A stretch of 64,000 nt of DNA from an uncultured Chloroflexia bacterium (GCA_963712165.1 CAVQGY010000002.1:134611-198610), one strand, 5' to 3'. Positions 23,180 to 61,633 are shown, numbered from the stretch's first letter. Made by a program: numbers and translations. Notes: generated by a model not told the origin, from the sequence alone.

Positions 23180-23554
23180 CTAAACTTCAAACGAATCTTC
23201 CGGCACCCAGGGGGGCACACATACTGCCAGAAAAATCAGGTCACTCTCCCCCTGATTCTTTATCTGATGAATTTCTTCGGGTTCAATATGGCAAGCTTGA
23301 CCGGATCTTAGTCTAATATCCTCCCCGTCCACACTCATCTGGCCTTCACCCTCTAGAATAAAATATGTCTCCTGGGAAACCTTATGGTAATGCGCCTCGC
23401 TGGATTTTCCTTTGGGGATCACGATCCGGGCCAGGCTGTGGTTGGCATCGGGGGTGGATGCTACCGCCTTCCCGATCAACTCATAGATGATCTCGCCAGT
23501 TCTTGTTTTGAGTGGTTGATTGTCGGTATTGATAGGGGTCAGATACATAATCAA
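23180..23554 (-). CDS. Cupin-domain protein
   Basis: 124 aa with the cupin motifs HYHKVSQETYFILEGEG and HIEPEEIHQIKN. Confidence 0.75.
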   Translation of the reverse strand: MIMYLTPINTDNQPLKTRTGEIIYELIGKAVASTPDANHSLARIVIPKGKSSEAHYHKVSQETYFILEGEGQMSVDGEDIRLRSGQACHIEPEEIHQIKNQGESDLIFLAVCVPPWVPEDSFEV

Positions 23555-23572
23555 GATTCCTTTCCTGTTCGA

Positions 23573-23920
23573 TCAGGACAGATCCGCATAGAGCAATTCA
23601 GTCCTCGCTGCCATAATAAAATCATTCTCGTGCAGCCTCTTGTAAACAAAGGTCCACCAGCGTACTGTGCACTTTCCCCAACTGATCATTAGATCCGGGT
23701 GATGGTCAGCCTCTTCGGATATCCCCGCAACCTTGTTGGCAAAGTTTAACGCCCCCAAAAAATCATCAAACACAAAAATTCGCTCAATGCGCGGATTGCC
23801 TTCCTGGTAAATCATCCTCCATTTGGGCAGCTTTGTTAAGTATCCAGCGATTTGTTCTTCTGTCAATGGCTCATTATATTTTGTGTAACTAAGAATTGAT
23901 TGCTTAGCCAGGTTCTCCAT
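23573..23920 (-). CDS. Pterin-4a-carbinolamine dehydratase-like protein
   Basis: 115 aa with the core FDDFLGALNFANKVAGISEEADHHPDL. Confidence 0.75.
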   Translation of the reverse strand: MENLAKQSILSYTKYNEPLTEEQIAGYLTKLPKWRMIYQEGNPRIERIFVFDDFLGALNFANKVAGISEEADHHPDLMISWGKCTVRWWTFVYKRLHENDFIMAARTELLYADLS

Positions 23921-44503: not shown

Positions 44504-44577
44504 GGGCGGTTAGCTCAGCTGGTTAGAGCGTTGCGTTGACATCGCAAAGGTCGTTGGTTCGAGTCCAATACCGCCCA
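44504..44577 (+). tRNA. tRNA-Val (anticodon GAC)
   Basis: I folded a 74-nt cloverleaf by hand: acceptor GGGCGGT/ACCGCCC, D arm GCTC/GAGC, anticodon stem TTGCG/CGCAA with loop TTGACAT, T arm GTTGG-TTCGAGT-CCAAT and discriminator A. No CCA is encoded. Confidence 0.93.
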
Positions 44578-44584
44578 CTTCTCT

Positions 44585-49639: not shown

Positions 49640-50566
49640 ATGCCTTCGAAAACAATAAACTCCAAAAACACCTTGATCCTGGCTTTAGTAGTGGGCTTAT
49701 CCCTTTTAACGATCACCATCTTGTCCTTTCAATTCAGGACCAACGGAAAGATCATCTCAAGCGGACGGACACGGAAATTCCTGATCTATGTCCCGGAATC
49801 TTATGATCCTGAAATGCCAACGCCCCTGGTTTTCAGCATCCATGGATTTGTACAGTGGCCCAATCACCAGAGAGCCATGACAGGATGGAATGACCTGGCA
49901 GATGAATATGGATTCCTGGTCGTATATCCCCAGGGCACCGGCTTCCCGCTCCGCTGGAATGCCTCGCCTATTTATGGTGATACAAAATCCATGGACGAGG
50001 AACTGCAGTTCTTTGCGGACCTGATCGACCATCTTGAAAGGACCTATAACATCGATCCCTCCCGGGTCTATGCCAACGGCATGTCCAATGGTGCCGGGAT
50101 GACCGATCTGCTGGCCTGTGAACTGTCCGACAGGTTCGCAGGAGTCGGCGGTGTGGCAGGGGCATATCTATTTCCCCAAGAAGACTGCCATCCATCCCGG
50201 CCAGTACCGGTGATCGCTTTCCACGGAGTAGACGATCCGGTCGTTCCTTATCTAGGCGGTCCCAGTCCCCGGGATGATCGATTATTCTTCCCGGCAGTTG
50301 AGGATTGGGCTAAAAACTGGGCGTTAATGAATTCCTGCGATAATAGCCCTGAGAAAATCCAAATAACAGAAGACATCATGAGAATGACCTATTCAGTATG
50401 CGAGGGTGAAGCTCCGGTGATCTTTTACAGAGTTGAAGGCGCCGGGCACACCTGGCCGGGCGGTGAAAAACTACCGGTCTGGATCACTGGTCCGACAAAC
50501 CGGGATATTAATGCCTCAGCATTGATGTGGGAATTCTTCAGCGAATATCCGGCAGAGAAGGAATAA
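49640..50566 (+). CDS. PHB-depolymerase-family esterase (LpqC-like), secreted or membrane-anchored
   Basis: 308 aa with an N-terminal TM/signal segment, LVFSIHGF, a nucleophile context YANGMSNGAGM and AFHGVDDPVVPY. Confidence 0.8.
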   Translation: MPSKTINSKNTLILALVVGLSLLTITILSFQFRTNGKIISSGRTRKFLIYVPESYDPEMPTPLVFSIHGFVQWPNHQRAMTGWNDLADEYGFLVVYPQGTGFPLRWNASPIYGDTKSMDEELQFFADLIDHLERTYNIDPSRVYANGMSNGAGMTDLLACELSDRFAGVGGVAGAYLFPQEDCHPSRPVPVIAFHGVDDPVVPYLGGPSPRDDRLFFPAVEDWAKNWALMNSCDNSPEKIQITEDIMRMTYSVCEGEAPVIFYRVEGAGHTWPGGEKLPVWITGPTNRDINASALMWEFFSEYPAEKE

Positions 50567-50632
50567 TAAATGGCGATTCTGGCAGAGCTTTTCGGCGATA
50601 TCAAATTCATCTTCTCCTACCGGAGGGTGCTG

Positions 50633-51229
50633 ATGAAAAGACAGCTGGGCCTGGATAAACTAGCTCCCAAGGCCGGTGACCTGGCGCTAGATTTCACCCT
50701 CTCGGATATCTCAGGTACGGAATCGATCACCCTGTCCGATTTCCAGGGGAAAAAGCCGGTGGCGCTGATCTTTGGCAGCTTCACCTGACCTCCCTATGTC
50801 AAGGGTACCGTGAGTATCAAGGAGCTCTATGAGAAATATCACGACCAGGTCCAGTTCCTGAGCATCTATATCCGCGAAGCCCATCCCATTGACGGTTGGT
50901 GGTTGGGCCGGCGCCTGACCAGGGGGTTGATGAAGATGTTTGAACCCAGGGCATCCCAAGAGCACTATGATCCCCAGACCATGGAGGAACGCAGGTCGGT
51001 GGCAGGGGAGTGCGAGACTGCTCTCCAATATGGGATCCGCACCTATGTAGACGAGATGGATGACAGGGTAAACGACACTTACGCCGCCTGGCCGACCCGA
51101 TTGTACCTAATTGGCCTGGATGGAGTGGTCGTTTATGCCGGCGGGATGGGGCCATATGATTTCCGCCCGGCAAAACTGGAAAAGGCCATTGAGACCTATT
51201 TGGCCAGCCAGCAAAATCTTAGCAGCTGA
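50633..51229 (+). CDS. Deiodinase-like thioredoxin-fold protein with in-frame UGA (probable selenocysteine) at 50786-50788
   Basis: ORFs 50570..50788 and 50810..51229 are in the same frame. Read through, the site is ALIFGSFT-TGA-PPYV, followed by FLSIYIREAHPIDGWW. GGAGGG lies 5 nt upstream of ATG 50633; ATG 50570 is an alternative start. Confidence 0.75.
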
Positions 51230-51262: not shown

Positions 51263-51292
51263 AACCTCCCCAAAGGGGAGGTTATTTTTATT
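51263..51292 (+). terminator. Intrinsic terminator after the selenoprotein gene
   Basis: AACCTCCCC-aaa-GGGGAGGTT is followed by ATTTTTATT. Confidence 0.8.
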
Positions 51293-51363
51293 ATGCTATA
51301 CTGAAAAAGGCATTGATCTCGGCAGGATCGAAATGATTTCCACCATATTGAACGGAGGTCCAC

Positions 51364-58999: not shown

Positions 59000-59938
59000 T
59001 TATCTGGATTTGAATCCCCCTTTGATCTTCTCATAAGGCTGTAGGTTGAAAGGACATACTTTCACGCAGACCGAACAGCCGTGGTATTTGTTGAAATACG
59101 GGAAACACTCATCATTCCGGAGATAGGTTTCCTGGCCGTCCGGGTGCAGCACCGGGTTGTCATAAAATGCATCCGCCGGGCACTCCCGGTGGCAGATCCG
59201 GCAGCTTTTACAGAACTCTCGCACCCAGGTGTGGTTATTGCCTTCGTTGAAGGGCAGATTGGCGATGCTGGTAAAGACCGCCGCCAGCCGCACCCGGGGA
59301 CCATGCTCGGGCGTGATGATCAATCCGTTCAGGCCCATCCAGCCCAGCCCGGCCATCTGTGCCAGCGGCGGATAGAGCGCCAGTCCGTTCAGAGGATGCC
59401 CGGCATGGGCGCCATATCCCCTTTCTCGTAGGAATGTGGCCAATGAGTTATTGATCCGGCCCAGGTCTCGGTAGGTTTCCATCACTGTCCGCATGCAGGC
59501 AATGCTGGGCGCGCTGTTGATGCCATCCGCATCCATCTCCATCGACACTACAATTGCGTTATCGTACAACACCGCCTTTTCCTGGAAGACCCAGCGCCGG
59601 GGAAGTTTTGTGTAGCCGATGCTGGCAGCGCCCAAATGGAAGGCTTCTGCTTCCAGCTCCTCGATCAATTTCTGGTCTGCCACGATTTTTGGTTGGGGCG
59701 GATTCTCGTCCAGGGTTTCCAAGGATTCTCTGATCCCGGAGAGGCAGGCCAGCATGGTTGGGAGCAATCTCACCGGGGGGCCAGCTTCGCTGCTTTCCAG
59801 CCTGCCCCGGATGATATCAAAGCGTCTGGGAGAAATTTCCGTGAAACGGATGACATCATCTCTTGACTGCAGCTCCTCTTCCAGGGAGAGTGCGGTCTGG
59901 AAGAGCGATGTTTTGTACAACATCTTTGGCAAGCTCAT
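59000..59938 (-). CDS. Fe-S protein of the reductive-dehalogenase / epoxyqueuosine-reductase (RdhA/QueG) superfamily
   Basis: 312 aa with GLGWMGLNGLIITPEHGPRVRLAAVFT, then CKSCRICHRECP and CSVCVKVCP cluster motifs. No Tat signal was seen. Confidence 0.6.
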   Translation of the reverse strand: MSLPKMLYKTSLFQTALSLEEELQSRDDVIRFTEISPRRFDIIRGRLESSEAGPPVRLLPTMLACLSGIRESLETLDENPPQPKIVADQKLIEELEAEAFHLGAASIGYTKLPRRWVFQEKAVLYDNAIVVSMEMDADGINSAPSIACMRTVMETYRDLGRINNSLATFLRERGYGAHAGHPLNGLALYPPLAQMAGLGWMGLNGLIITPEHGPRVRLAAVFTSIANLPFNEGNNHTWVREFCKSCRICHRECPADAFYDNPVLHPDGQETYLRNDECFPYFNKYHGCSVCVKVCPFNLQPYEKIKGGFKSR

Positions 59939-59966: not shown

Positions 59967-60920
59967 TTATCCATAAAGATATTGATAGACAGCATCCAGA
60001 CCAACCAGGGCTGCACTCACCGCGCCTACCAGGGTGATCTCATAGATCATGTCATCCGTATACCCGGCTGCTTTTAAATCCTCCACATCCTCATCGGTAA
60101 TCCGATAAGCATGGAGGGAAAGATTCTTGAGATAATTTCTAAGCTCATCTGGTAGATCAGGAGTTTGTCCACCCTCAACTCTCCATTGGGACATAATATA
60201 TAACTCAATATCCGATCTCATTGCCGGATCCGTCTCACCCTCCACAGAAAGCAGATGCTGACGTCCCGCCTCTACTTCAGGAGGCCGGATCAGGCCATCT
60301 TCTGTTTTCACCCAATCCTCAACTGCTGGTGAGCCTCGTAAGATCCCGCCGGTAAAATTCAACATTCTCGCCAGTCGTTTTTGTTGAACGCCCTGGGGGA
60401 CTGGAAAGCCAAATGCGTCTGCCACCCGGTCGATCAAATTATAATGAAACCCCACATTGGCAGCTTCCTGAATAGCCAGGTTATCTAAACCGGATTTTCG
60501 GATTTCATCCATCAGGTCGTGGTCCATATCCTGGGGATGAACAGTCATCACCTCAAGCATTTTCAAAGCTGCCCGGGTCTTTTCCGGAATATCCGCCTGG
60601 GTCCAATCCTCCAGCACTGCATCAAGAACATTCTGGGGCATATGCAGAGCCGCGACCGCGACATGTGCTTCGAGTCAAAACATACATTGGTTAAGCTTGG
60701 AGACGAAACTGGCAAAAAGCTCGGCTTCCCCTTTGGTCCAGCCTCCTGAACCTGCCATACCACGCACAATATAGGATATAAAATCCTTTTTAAAGAAAGA
60801 CGGTTTGTAGGAGAGGGTCAATGGTGGACCTGGTAATGCTCCCACCCACCATCTGGCAAACCTCAATCCCAGACTCATATACCAAGGCCTGTGACTGCTT
60901 TTCATCAGGTCGATCCGCAT
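59967..60920 (-). CDS. AhpD/carboxymuconolactone-decarboxylase-family protein with in-frame UGA (probable selenocysteine) at 60675-60677
   Basis: ORFs 60675..60983 and 59967..60641 share a frame. Read through, the site is E-LFASFVSKLNQ-C-M-F-TGA-L-E-A-H, which equals the AhpD E-x11-C-x-x-C-x3-H motif with the second Cys replaced by TGA. I place the start at 60920 (GGAGG 6 nt upstream). Confidence 0.75.
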
Positions 60921-61021: not shown

Positions 61022-61633
61022 ATGCCTCAAACCATATCGAAGGATCCTCGCGCTATCAGAACCAGGACCGCTCTTCAATCCTCATTTAAGAATCTCCTTA
61101 GACACAAACCGTATAATAAAATCTCCATCGCCGATATCGCAAATAAGGCCGGGGTTGCCCGGCATACCTTTTATAACCACTACGAGACCAAACAGGATCT
61201 CTTGTATTTTCTGGTGGATACCATCCTGGAACCATATTATAAAAATCTGGAAAATTGGAGTCCATTCCTGACCAACCCTGAAGAAGAGCAGAGGATGCAT
61301 ACCTCGTTCTTCAAAGCCTGGAAGGATAACGCTGATGTGATCGGTTTATTAGAGTCTGTCGATCTGGATCTGGTCATTGTTGATAGGCTGAAAAGTTTAT
61401 TCAGACGGTTCTATTATGAGAAGGTCTCGTCTGAGATGCCAGGTATCAGCCAGAATTTTGCTAATTACGTGATCAGCTATAACGCTTACACATTGGCTGG
61501 TTTGTTAAAGCCATGGTATGACTCGGGGATGAAAGATTCTCCTGCCGATCTGGGAGGATTTCTGGTGCAGCTTTCTGGAGCCTCTCAGCGGTTCCAGGCT
61601 ATTGAAAAATACAGGCATATACTTGGTGGCTAA
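61022..61633 (+). CDS. TetR/AcrR-family transcriptional regulator
   Basis: 203 aa with N-terminal HTH ISIADIANKAGVARHTFYNHYETKQDL. Confidence 0.9.
   Translation: MPQTISKDPRAIRTRTALQSSFKNLLRHKPYNKISIADIANKAGVARHTFYNHYETKQDLLYFLVDTILEPYYKNLENWSPFLTNPEEEQRMHTSFFKAWKDNADVIGLLESVDLDLVIVDRLKSLFRRFYYEKVSSEMPGISQNFANYVISYNAYTLAGLLKPWYDSGMKDSPADLGGFLVQLSGASQRFQAIEKYRHILGG

What the first reader, a model, noticed from the sequence alone, without database searches (positions are those of the whole stretch)
50633..51229. In-frame TGA at the catalytic position of a deiodinase-like thioredoxin-fold protein (FGSFT-U-PPY): probable unannotated selenoprotein
The ORF track splits this gene into 50570..50788 and 50810..51229. 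Both pieces are in the same frame and are separated only by TGA 50786-50788 plus 7 sense codons.

Read through, the site is KPVALIFGSFT-[TGA]-PPYVKG...FLSIYIREAHPIDGWW. This is the FGS-x-T-(C/U)-PP-(F/Y) redox motif and the following YI.EAHP.DGW block of the iodothyronine-deiodinase-like Trx-fold family (Pfam T4_deiodinase, PF00837). Bacterial members with Sec or Cys at this position have been reported from metagenomes.

A small hairpin, UCAAGG-GUA-CCGUGA (50799-50813), starts 10 nt after the UGA and has GU in its loop. That is weakly SECIS-like.

The gene sits 3' of an LpqC-type esterase and is followed by a clean terminator, so it looks like a functional operon member and not a decaying gene.
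Basis: partly seen in the sequence, partly recalled or inferred. Interest (0 to 1): 0.7.

Follow-up and report, generated by a model that had tools for sequence, protein, structure and literature searches.

The report
Unannotated bacterial deiodinase-like selenoprotein gene
The apparent stop codon that splits this gene very probably encodes selenocysteine at the active site of a bacterial relative of thyroid-hormone deiodinases, a selenoprotein family known since 2005 whose bacterial function is still unknown.

Summary
TGA 50786-50788 lies in frame inside one 219-codon gene (50570-51229, +). Read through, the gene matches Pfam T4_deiodinase at 91 bits against a cut-off of 27, and the match spans the TGA.

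The codon is conserved as TGA in all 84 relatives whose DNA I read, mostly Anaerolineales MAGs. In more distant relatives it aligns with Cys in 120 of 128 proteins.

A 5-bp hairpin with loop CGUGA (50804-50818) follows the UGA. It is 98% paired across 79 sequences, and one of its pairs occurs as four Watson-Crick types. Synonymous codon choice is frozen exactly there (entropy ratio 0.31 against 0.93, p = 7e-8).

TGA is otherwise a normal stop in this window. A second UGA gene, an AhpD-like CxxU protein at 59967-60920 (-), lies 9 kb away and has its own GGUC-loop hairpin. This suggests the organism decodes Sec.

Both families were described as bacterial selenoproteins in 2005, so this is a new member of a known kind. 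The less ordinary point is that RDH/QueG-like Fe-S genes flank the gene in many close relatives.

The parts
50570..51229 (+). Complete deiodinase-like selenoprotein gene (219 codons plus stop), read through UGA at codon 73
   Evidence: sequence and frame. PF00837, 91.2 bits, residues 20-210. N-terminus conserved from residue 1 in the closest relatives. DIO3 4TR3, E = 3.4e-18. AF2 pLDDT 82, top Foldseek hits 4TR3 and 9H48.
50786..50788 (+). UGA read as selenocysteine (Sec73) in motif FGSFT-U-PPY
   Evidence: TGA at the same column in 84 of 84 relatives' DNA. Cys in 120 of 128 distant representatives and W (UGA translated with code 4) in 5.
50804..50818 (+). Conserved SECIS-like hairpin. Pairs G50804-C50818, G50805.U50817, U50806-A50816, A50807-U50815, C50808-G50814; loop CGUGA 50809-50813, with its G and U at +25/+26 counting the U of UGA as +1
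   Evidence: 98% of cells paired in 79 sequences; pair 30/40 is GC 62, UA 13, AU 1, CG 1; slid controls 28-59% paired; synonymous entropy ratio 0.31 for these 5 codons against 0.93 +/- 0.115 elsewhere, Mann-Whitney p = 6.6e-8; folds as this hairpin, but the energy is not exceptional.
50555..50563 (+). Shine-Dalgarno-like GAGAAGGAA upstream of ATG 50570, overlapping the end of the esterase gene (its stop is 50564-50566)
   Evidence: Read directly. Inference only.
49640..50566 (+). Upstream esterase (PHB-depolymerase/LpqC type), probably co-transcribed
   Evidence: PF10503, 39.6 bits; the esterase and the DIO-like fragment share contigs in near-identical relatives.
51263..51293 (+). Intrinsic-terminator-like hairpin AACCTCCCC-AAA-GGGGAGGTT followed by a T-run
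   Evidence: 9 pairs, 6 of them G-C. The number of such sites in the region is no higher than in shuffles, so this is a consensus match only.
59967..60920 (-). Supporting feature: second UGA-containing gene. AhpD-like CxxU protein with motif C-M-F-U-LEAH, UGA at 60675-60677
   Evidence: scan. TIGR01926, 84.8 bits against cut-off 81.8; NF041238 '(seleno)protein' weak; 94 homologues, all covering only the part after the UGA. TGA conserved in L086, L088, L089, L016 with homology on both sides.
60649..60662 (-). Hairpin GUCGC-GGUC-GCGGC after the second UGA, with the loop's G and U at +22/+23
   Evidence: MFE contains it; kept in 5 loci; the third pair is C-G, U.G, A-U, C-G, with one mismatch in L089.
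59000..59938 (-). RDH/QueG-superfamily 2x[4Fe-4S] protein directly downstream of the AhpD-like gene. Relatives of it flank the deiodinase-like gene in other genomes
   Evidence: Fer4 domains. TIGR02486 RDH 84 bits (below cut-off 160), QueG 51.7 bits; adjacent and on the same strand in 15 of 81 loci.

Best explanation
**What it is.** 50570-51229 is one intact gene for a thioredoxin-fold, deiodinase-like selenoprotein. UGA 50786-50788 is decoded as selenocysteine.

**How the UGA is decoded (inferred from the E. coli paradigm).** The ribosome reaches the UGA while the 5-bp hairpin 50804-50818 is still folded 15 nt downstream. The hairpin's apical loop, CGUGA, presents a G-U about 25 nt from the UGA. 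SelB.GTP.Sec-tRNA(Sec) binds this loop and delivers Sec to the A site in competition with RF2.

**How the protein works (inferred).**
- Sec73 sits at the N-end of helix alpha1 in the motif FGS-F-T-U-PPY.
- The Ser70/Thr72/Tyr100/Glu103/His105/Pro106/Trp110 set corresponds to the proton-relay and loop-D edge residues of mammalian DIO2/DIO3.
- Cys148 is invariant in the close relatives and kept in 81 of 120 distant Cys forms. It is the likely resolving thiol, forming a selenenylsulfide that an external thiol reductant then reduces, as in a peroxiredoxin cycle.

**Substrate.** Unknown. The two candidates are an electrophile such as a halogen on an aromatic ring (DIO-like reductive dehalogenation) or a peroxide/disulfide.

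**Shown here:** gene integrity, family membership, conservation of the UGA, the Sec/Cys pair, and the conserved constrained hairpin.

**Inferred:** SelB recognition, actual Se incorporation, the catalytic cycle and the substrate.
For: **Family and fold.**
- Pfam T4_deiodinase at 91 bits, spanning the UGA.
- DIO3 and DIO2 catalytic cores are the best PDB matches by sequence and by predicted fold.

**The UGA.**
- Kept in 84 of 84 relatives' DNA while flanking codons vary.
- Cys at the aligned site in 120 of 128 distant representatives.
- TGA ends 21 of 57 long ORFs and the window is 89% coding under code 11, so there is no global reassignment.

**The hairpin.**
- 98% of cells paired, with four Watson-Crick pair types at one position. 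That position links a Gly third base to the first base of the Leu/Ile/Val/Phe codon.
- Synonymous-site freeze confined to the five hairpin codons.

**Context.**
- A second conserved UGA gene with a GGUC-loop hairpin lies in the same window.
- The family is already listed as a bacterial selenoprotein family (PMC1088965; PMC13188914).
Against: - No selA, selB, selD or tRNA-Sec in the window or in the relatives' 20-kb loci. The rest of the genome could not be read.
- The hairpin is short (5 bp including a G.U pair, about -4 kcal/mol). Its single-sequence folding energy is no better than that of shuffles (z = -0.3 to -0.9).
- The 13 U-A variants of the covarying pair belong to one clade, so only about three independent compensatory events are seen.
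- No Rfam family matches.
- No labelling or proteomic evidence.
Confidence: 0.9

Rival explanations
1. The TGA is a real stop. The locus is a decaying pseudogene, or the TGA is a sequencing error for TGC/TGT.
For: Gene callers split it, and the database holds the 139-aa piece as a separate protein.
Against: The same TGA is present in 84 independent assemblies at 57-78% protein identity. There is strong conservation on both sides, with 36 invariant residues downstream, and no other frame disruption. A pseudogene would not keep one stop at one column.
Confidence: 0.02
2. Two separate functional polypeptides are made: a 72-residue N-terminal peptide ending at TGA, and a 139-residue protein that re-initiates at GTG 50810.
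For: An ORF with a GTG start exists 7 codons after the TGA.
Against: - The Trx-fold active-site motif and its beta1-alpha1 unit would be cut in two.
- The downstream 'start' is not conserved. Relatives' called fragments begin at different residues (MSIQ, MGIQ, MRLG, MNGTV, MKGTV).
- GTG 50810 lies inside the hairpin loop and has no Shine-Dalgarno sequence.
- Cys forms are single chains.
Confidence: 0.03
3. The UGA is read through or recoded as a standard amino acid (Trp, Cys or Gly) without the Sec machinery. This could happen by a suppressor or near-cognate tRNA, with the hairpin acting as a general read-through stimulator.
For: - The Sec machinery is not shown for this genome.
- Database entries show W at the site.
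- The hairpin is small.
Against: - The W is an artefact of code-4 translation of short contigs.
- TGA is a normal terminator for 21 of 57 genes here.
- The aligned residue in non-UGA relatives is Cys, the hallmark Sec/Cys pair.
- Both UGA genes in the window belong to families with Sec at exactly this catalytic position (PMC1088965).
- The G-U of the loop is placed about as in the E. coli fdhF SECIS (own knowledge: G23/U24).
Confidence: 0.05

Closest known systems
Bacterial deiodinase-like selenoproteins (Pfam PF00837). First reported from the Sargasso Sea metagenome by Zhang, Fomenko and Gladyshev 2005 (PMC1088965); listed in the 2022 and 2026 reviews (PMC9312934, PMC13188914)
   Same: Same Pfam family. 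In-frame UGA at the Trx-fold active site, Cys-containing homologues, and a bacterial-type stem-loop with a G in the apical loop just downstream of the UGA. Function unknown but presumed to be redox.
   Different: The 2005 set was 4 marine sequences. This one is from an Anaerolineales-like Chloroflexota lineage, where the family is large: 423 loci in species-representative genomes, and several MAGs hold two copies. The reviews tabulate the motif as UxxC; here it is U-P-P-Y, with no Cys at +3, and the conserved second Cys is 75 residues away (C148).
Mammalian iodothyronine deiodinases DIO3 (PDB 4TR3) and DIO2 (PDB 9H48)
   Same: - Best sequence and fold matches.
- The FGS-x-T-U-PP-[FY] and Y-I-x-E-A-H-P-x-D-G-W blocks are shared. 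These hold the Ser/Thr/Tyr/Glu/His relay residues described for DIO2/DIO3 (PMC11592359).
- Sec is the catalytic residue.
   Different: - Only 24-28% identity.
- No hydrophobic N-terminal membrane anchor; the N-terminal helix 2-31 is charged and amphipathic.
- The SECIS lies inside the coding region and is of bacterial type, not a 3'-UTR kink-turn element.
- The candidate resolving Cys is at a different position.
- Thyroid hormones are not expected substrates.
E. coli fdhF SECIS, the bacterial SelB-dependent Sec insertion element
   Same: A hairpin immediately 3' of the UGA within the reading frame, with a G-U in a small apical loop about 23-26 nt from the UGA.
   Different: Much shorter stem (5-6 bp). 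No bulged U is evident. The loop is CGUGA rather than GGUC. SelB binding is not tested. The AhpD-like gene's hairpin in this window has the GGUC loop.
ResA/TlpA/peroxiredoxin-like thiol-disulfide oxidoreductases
   Same: Same Trx/Prx-like fold (Foldseek ranks 3-50). Weak Redoxin and AhpC-TSA Pfam hits over residues 34-109.
   Different: These score far below the deiodinase family. They lack the DIO-type insertion and the EAHP-DGW block. They use CxxC.

Membership tests
Bacterial deiodinase-like selenoprotein family (PF00837 with Sec) | Significant match to Pfam T4_deiodinase above the gathering threshold | tested here: met
   91.2 bits against cut-off 27, residues 20-210
Bacterial deiodinase-like selenoprotein family (PF00837 with Sec) | In-frame UGA at the catalytic Sec/Cys column, with homology on both sides | tested here: met
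   TGA in 84 of 84 relatives.
Bacterial deiodinase-like selenoprotein family (PF00837 with Sec) | Cys-containing homologues aligned with the UGA (Sec/Cys pair) | tested here: met
   120 of the 128 distant representatives that span the site have Cys
Bacterial deiodinase-like selenoprotein family (PF00837 with Sec) | Bacterial SECIS-like stem-loop just downstream of the UGA, with G in a small apical loop | tested here: met
   Conserved hairpin 50804-50818 with loop CGUGA. 98% paired, with covariation and synonymous constraint. Single-sequence stability is unremarkable.
Bacterial deiodinase-like selenoprotein family (PF00837 with Sec) | Host genome encodes selA, selB, selD and tRNA-Sec | not testable with these tools
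   None in the window or in relatives' loci. The source contig (1,297,979 bp) is not retrievable. Indirect support: a second UGA gene in the window.
Bacterial deiodinase-like selenoprotein family (PF00837 with Sec) | Selenium actually incorporated at residue 73 | not testable with these tools
   Needs 75Se labelling or mass spectrometry
NCBIfam NF038285 'deiodinase_rel' (hypothetical equivalog, 347-aa model) | Score at or above the curated cut-off over the full model | tested here: not met
   178 bits against cut-off 250. Only model positions 163-342 are matched. This protein lacks the N-terminal half of that family.
Animal iodothyronine deiodinases (DIO1-3) | Trx fold with the DIO insertion, plus the conserved Ser/Thr/Sec and Tyr/Glu/His/Pro/Trp blocks | tested here: met
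   Alignments to 4TR3 and 9H48. Foldseek top hits with TM 0.66/0.75. Residue roles are taken from PMC11592359.
Animal iodothyronine deiodinases (DIO1-3) | N-terminal transmembrane anchor | tested here: not met
   By direct reading, residues 1-31 (AILAELFGDIKFIFSYRRVLMKRQLGLDK) hold many charged residues and no hydrophobic run of 18 or more. They are predicted as one helix. No dedicated TM predictor was run.
Animal iodothyronine deiodinases (DIO1-3) | Eukaryotic 3'-UTR SECIS | tested here: not met
   No Rfam SECIS hit. The conserved element lies inside the ORF and is of bacterial type.
Animal iodothyronine deiodinases (DIO1-3) | Reductive deiodination of iodothyronines | not testable with these tools
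   Needs an enzymatic assay
AhpD-like CxxU selenoproteins (TIGR01926), for the second gene 59967-60920 | Family match above cut-off, and UGA at the CxxU position conserved in homologues | tested here: met
   84.8 bits against cut-off 81.8. TGA in 5 loci with homology on both sides.

The most novel reading that the evidence does not exclude
In Anaerolineales-type Chloroflexota, the deiodinase-like selenoprotein may be one part of a recurrent module. The other parts are cytoplasmic RDH/QueG-superfamily Fe-S (possibly corrinoid) proteins and an AhpD-like CxxU selenoprotein.

In L016 the three genes are contiguous on one strand. In the window they lie within 10 kb of each other. RDH-like genes directly flank the deiodinase-like gene in 15 of 81 loci.

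On this reading the bacterial protein is a true selenium-dependent dehalogenase, or the redox partner of a dehalogenase-like enzyme, acting on natural organohalides. The animal thyroid-hormone deiodinases would then descend from a bacterial dehalogenation system.
Probability: 0.15. Interest if true: 0.7.

Novelty: new member of a known kind. Interest (0 to 1): 0.35.

Why it matters
**For annotation.** This gene and more than a thousand relatives are stored in public protein sets in one of two wrong forms. Some are ~135-residue fragments, and others carry a spurious Trp at the active site from code-4 translation. The catalytic residue is therefore invisible to anyone mining these data.

**For biology.** The family is much larger and more lineage-specific than the four marine sequences that defined it; it is Anaerolineales-rich and often has two copies per genome. 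The window shows two selenoprotein genes 9 kb apart, which marks the organism as a Sec user.

**For function.** The repeated adjacency to reductive-dehalogenase/QueG-like genes gives the first concrete, testable hint at a function for bacterial deiodinase homologues. Their function has been open since 2005.

Tried and rejected
1. **Sec machinery.** tblastn with E. coli SelA, SelB and SelD, plus ARAGORN for tRNA-Sec, on the window and all fetched loci. Nothing relevant was found; the only hit was a weak 29% SelA-like match in L030.
2. **Source contig.** Exact-protein look-ups showed a 1,297,979-bp NCBI/ENA contig, but only short Logan contigs without DNA were returned.
Rejected: 62% paired, and one pair is never formed.
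4. **Lower helix extending the conserved hairpin (A2 columns 22-24 with 46-48).** Only 71% paired, so it is not claimed.
5. **Single-sequence folding as evidence.** Not significant.
6. **Rfam.** The gathering scan and the permissive scans at both UGAs gave no SECIS family.
7. **Global TGA reassignment (code 4 or 25).** Rejected, because TGA ends 21 of 57 ORFs and coding density is 89%.
8. **Other in-frame-TGA candidates in the window.** PCD/cupin at 23180-23920 is two ordinary genes that happen to share a frame. No other candidate was credible.
9. **A conserved operon partner across the whole family.** None exists. The esterase and amidohydrolase neighbours are specific to this lineage.
10. 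**NCBIfam deiodinase_rel equivalog membership.** Below cut-off.

Full report
**1. The observation**

The sequence is as described. ORF 50570..50788 ends in TGA (50786-50788). ORF 50810..51229 is in the same frame, 7 codons further on. The read-through translation is a single 219-residue protein with ...KPVALIFGSFT-*-PPYVKGTVSIKELYEKYHDQVQFLSIYIREAHPIDGWW....

With Cys placed at the stop, the protein matches Pfam T4_deiodinase (PF00837) at 91.2 bits, E = 8e-26, against a cut-off of 27. The match covers residues 20-210, on both sides of the TGA. Redoxin and AhpC-TSA give only weak partial hits.

The upstream gene (49640-50566) is an Esterase_PHB/LpqC-type hydrolase. It stops 3 nt before ATG 50570, and an AAGGA lies 7 nt upstream of that ATG. 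A 9-bp G+C-rich hairpin with a T-run follows the gene at 51263-51283.

The true start is 50570 rather than the 50633 given in the finding. The first 21 residues (MAILAELFGDIKFIFSYRRVL) are conserved in the closest relatives.

**2. Is the TGA a stop, an error, or a codon?**

A search of 5.8 billion proteins found 1576 relatives.
- More than 100 of the best 120 are ~135-residue pieces that begin just after the TGA position.
- The few 'full-length' ones carry W exactly there.

Reading the DNA behind one W-form (L001) and one fragment (L002) showed the same in-frame TGA in both. The W is therefore an artefact of translating short contigs with genetic code 4.

A scan of one genome per species (GTDB representatives) found 423 loci encoding relatives. 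Eighty were fetched, nearly all Anaerolineales/Chloroflexota MAGs at 57-78% identity. In every one of them, in the two metagenome loci and in the window, the codon at this column is TGA. That is 84 of 84, including three with variant motifs.

Independent assemblies that keep one stop at one column exclude both a base-call error and a pseudogene. Flanking codons vary freely, and 36 downstream residues are invariant.

TGA is not reassigned in this organism. It ends 21 of the 57 long ORFs, and the window is 89% coding under code 11.

An exhaustive profile-free search of 1.84 billion cluster representatives gave the classical Sec/Cys pair. Of the 128 distant relatives that span the site, 120 have Cys, 5 have W (again UGA), and 3 have something else.

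**3. The RNA element**

I aligned 78 nt around the UGA from 79 distinct sequences.

RNAalifold predicts one helix. In window coordinates it is G50804-C50818, G50805.U50817, U50806-A50816, A50807-U50815 and C50808-G50814, with loop CGUGA (50809-50813).
- Across the alignment, 98% of cells in these five pairs are standard pairs, against 28-59% when the 3' partners are slid by 1-3 columns.
- One pair occurs as G-C (62), U-A (13), A-U (1) and C-G (1). It couples the wobble base of a Gly codon to the first base of the following Leu/Ile/Phe/Val codon, which protein selection alone would not do.
- The 13 U-A cases form one clade, so I count about three independent compensatory events.

An independent test used a codon alignment of 81 genes. 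For each conserved residue I computed synonymous-codon entropy relative to the gene-wide entropy for that amino acid.
- The ratio is 0.93 +/- 0.115 over 114 codons.
- It drops to 0.44, 0.36, 0.45, 0.15 and 0.17 at the five consecutive codons 50804-50818 (mean 0.31; Mann-Whitney p = 6.6e-8).
- For example, the Leu there is CUC in 63 of 67 sequences, although six Leu codons are used freely elsewhere in the gene.

Counting the U of UGA as +1, the loop's G and U are at +25/+26. In the E. coli fdhF SECIS the essential G and U are at +23/+24 (own knowledge).

Only 62% of its cells pair, and one of its pairs essentially never forms.

Caveats:
- The conserved helix is short, about -4 kcal/mol.
- Its single-sequence energy is not better than that of shuffles.
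- A possible lower helix is only 71% paired.
- No Rfam family matches.

**4. The protein**

By sequence, the best solved relatives are the mouse DIO3 (4TR3, E = 3.4e-18) and DIO2 (9H48, E = 7e-14) catalytic cores. They align through FGS-x-T-C(Sec)-PP-F and Y-I-x-E-A-H-P-x-D-G-W.

An AlphaFold2 model (pLDDT 82, pTM 0.81) has the same two structures as its top Foldseek hits (TM 0.66/0.75). ResA-type and peroxiredoxin-type Trx folds follow.

Ser70, Thr72, Tyr100, Glu103, His105, Pro106 and Trp110 correspond to the residues described as the proton relay and loop-D edge in DIO2/DIO3 (PMC11592359).

Cys148 is invariant among the close relatives and kept in 81 of 120 Cys forms. I infer it is the resolving thiol of a Prx-like cycle.

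The N-terminal 31 residues form a charged, amphipathic helix and not a membrane anchor.

The protein falls below the cut-off of NCBIfam 'deiodinase_rel' (178 against 250 bits). It matches only the C-terminal half of that longer model.

**5. Does this organism use Sec?**

No selA, selB, selD or tRNA-Sec lies in the window or in the relatives' loci. The window comes from a 1,297,979-bp NCBI/ENA contig, which the tools did not return. The direct test therefore remains open.

A scan of the window for other in-frame TGAs found one more credible case, on the minus strand at 59967-60920.
- It is an AhpD-like protein: TIGR01926 at 84.8 bits against cut-off 81.8, and a weak hit to NF041238 'alkylhydroperoxidase-related (seleno)protein'.
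- UGA 60675-60677 falls in the motif C-M-F-U-LEAH (CxxU).
- All 94 database homologues cover only the part after the UGA.
- The DNA of four other loci shows the same TGA, with homology on both sides.
- A hairpin GUCGC-GGUC-GCGGC, with the loop's G and U at +22/+23, follows the UGA. It is kept with compensatory changes.

Two unrelated genes in 64 kb, each with a conserved UGA at a known Sec position and its own G-U loop hairpin, are hard to explain unless the organism decodes Sec.

**6. Comparison with what is known**

Both families were reported as bacterial selenoproteins from the Sargasso Sea metagenome in 2005. That set held 4 deiodinase-like and 27 AhpD-like sequences, with bacterial SECIS elements and Cys homologues noted, and the function was called probably redox (PMC1088965). 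Both are listed in recent reviews (PMC9312934, PMC13188914).

The finding is therefore a correct detection of an unannotated member of a known family, not a new kind of thing.

**7. Context and a possible lead**

Across 81 loci there is no universal neighbour.

In 15 loci, 14 of them among the 23 closest relatives, one to four genes for 320-350-residue proteins lie immediately upstream or downstream on the same strand. These proteins have two [4Fe-4S] motifs. Their best, sub-threshold NCBIfam matches are reductive dehalogenase (TIGR02486, 72-84 bits against cut-off 160) and QueG.

In the window the same kind of gene (59000-59938) follows the AhpD-like selenoprotein gene. In L016 the deiodinase-like, RDH-like and AhpD-like genes are contiguous. 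L090 and L086 also pair AhpD-like with an Fe-S protein of this size.

This may be synteny by descent within one clade. It may instead mark a functional module that links two chemically different 'reductive dehalogenase' folds. I found no paper that connects them. I rate this reading at about 15%.

**8. Verdict**

The remaining doubt rests on the untested Sec machinery and on the lack of protein-level evidence.

Novelty: a new member of a known kind. Interest is modest.

Noticed in passing
window 59967-60920 (-); UGA 60675-60677; hairpin 60649-60662: A second unannotated selenoprotein candidate. It is an AhpD-like protein (TIGR01926) with the CxxU motif C-M-F-U-LEAH, split by gene callers into 81/102-aa and 224-aa pieces. 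The TGA and a GGUC-loop hairpin are conserved in four other loci.
   Followed up: partly
window 59000-59938 (-); L008, L009, L011-L018, L020, L022, L025, L026, L057 next to the deiodinase-like gene; L016 140-2857: Cytoplasmic RDH/QueG-superfamily 2x[4Fe-4S] proteins (sub-threshold TIGR02486 hits) directly flank the deiodinase-like gene in 15 of 81 loci, and follow the AhpD-like gene in the window. In L016 all three families are contiguous on one strand.
   Followed up: partly
protein database entries P0001-P0004, P0006-P0011 etc.; L001 404-406: 'Full-length' homologues in the public protein collection carry Trp at the active site, because short contigs were translated with genetic code 4. Most other homologues are ~135-aa fragments that begin after the UGA. 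The family is systematically mis-annotated.
   Followed up: yes
window 23180-23920 (-): A pterin-4a-carbinolamine dehydratase gene (23573-23920) and a cupin gene (23180-23554) lie in the same frame, separated by a TGA. Each matches its Pfam family completely on its own, so these are two ordinary genes and not a selenoprotein.
   Followed up: yes
L015/L017, L013/L037, L008/L076, L012/L068, L016/L030: Several Anaerolineales MAGs hold two deiodinase-like UGA genes on different contigs: a long-N-terminus form and a short form. The family is multi-copy in this lineage.
   Followed up: no
window 61022-61633 (+): A TetR-family regulator is divergently placed upstream of the AhpD-like/RDH-like gene pair. 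The same arrangement is seen in L086, L088 and L089. It may be the local regulator.
   Followed up: no
window 50777-50785: The two codons just before the UGA also show reduced synonymous variation: Ser is AGY in 79 of 81 sequences and Thr is ACC in 67 of 81 (entropy ratios 0.45 and 0.44). This may be a codon-context effect on UGA decoding, or it may be shared ancestry.
   Followed up: no
window 44504-44578 (+): tRNA-Val (GAC) is the only tRNA in the window. There is no tRNA-Sec.
   Followed up: yes
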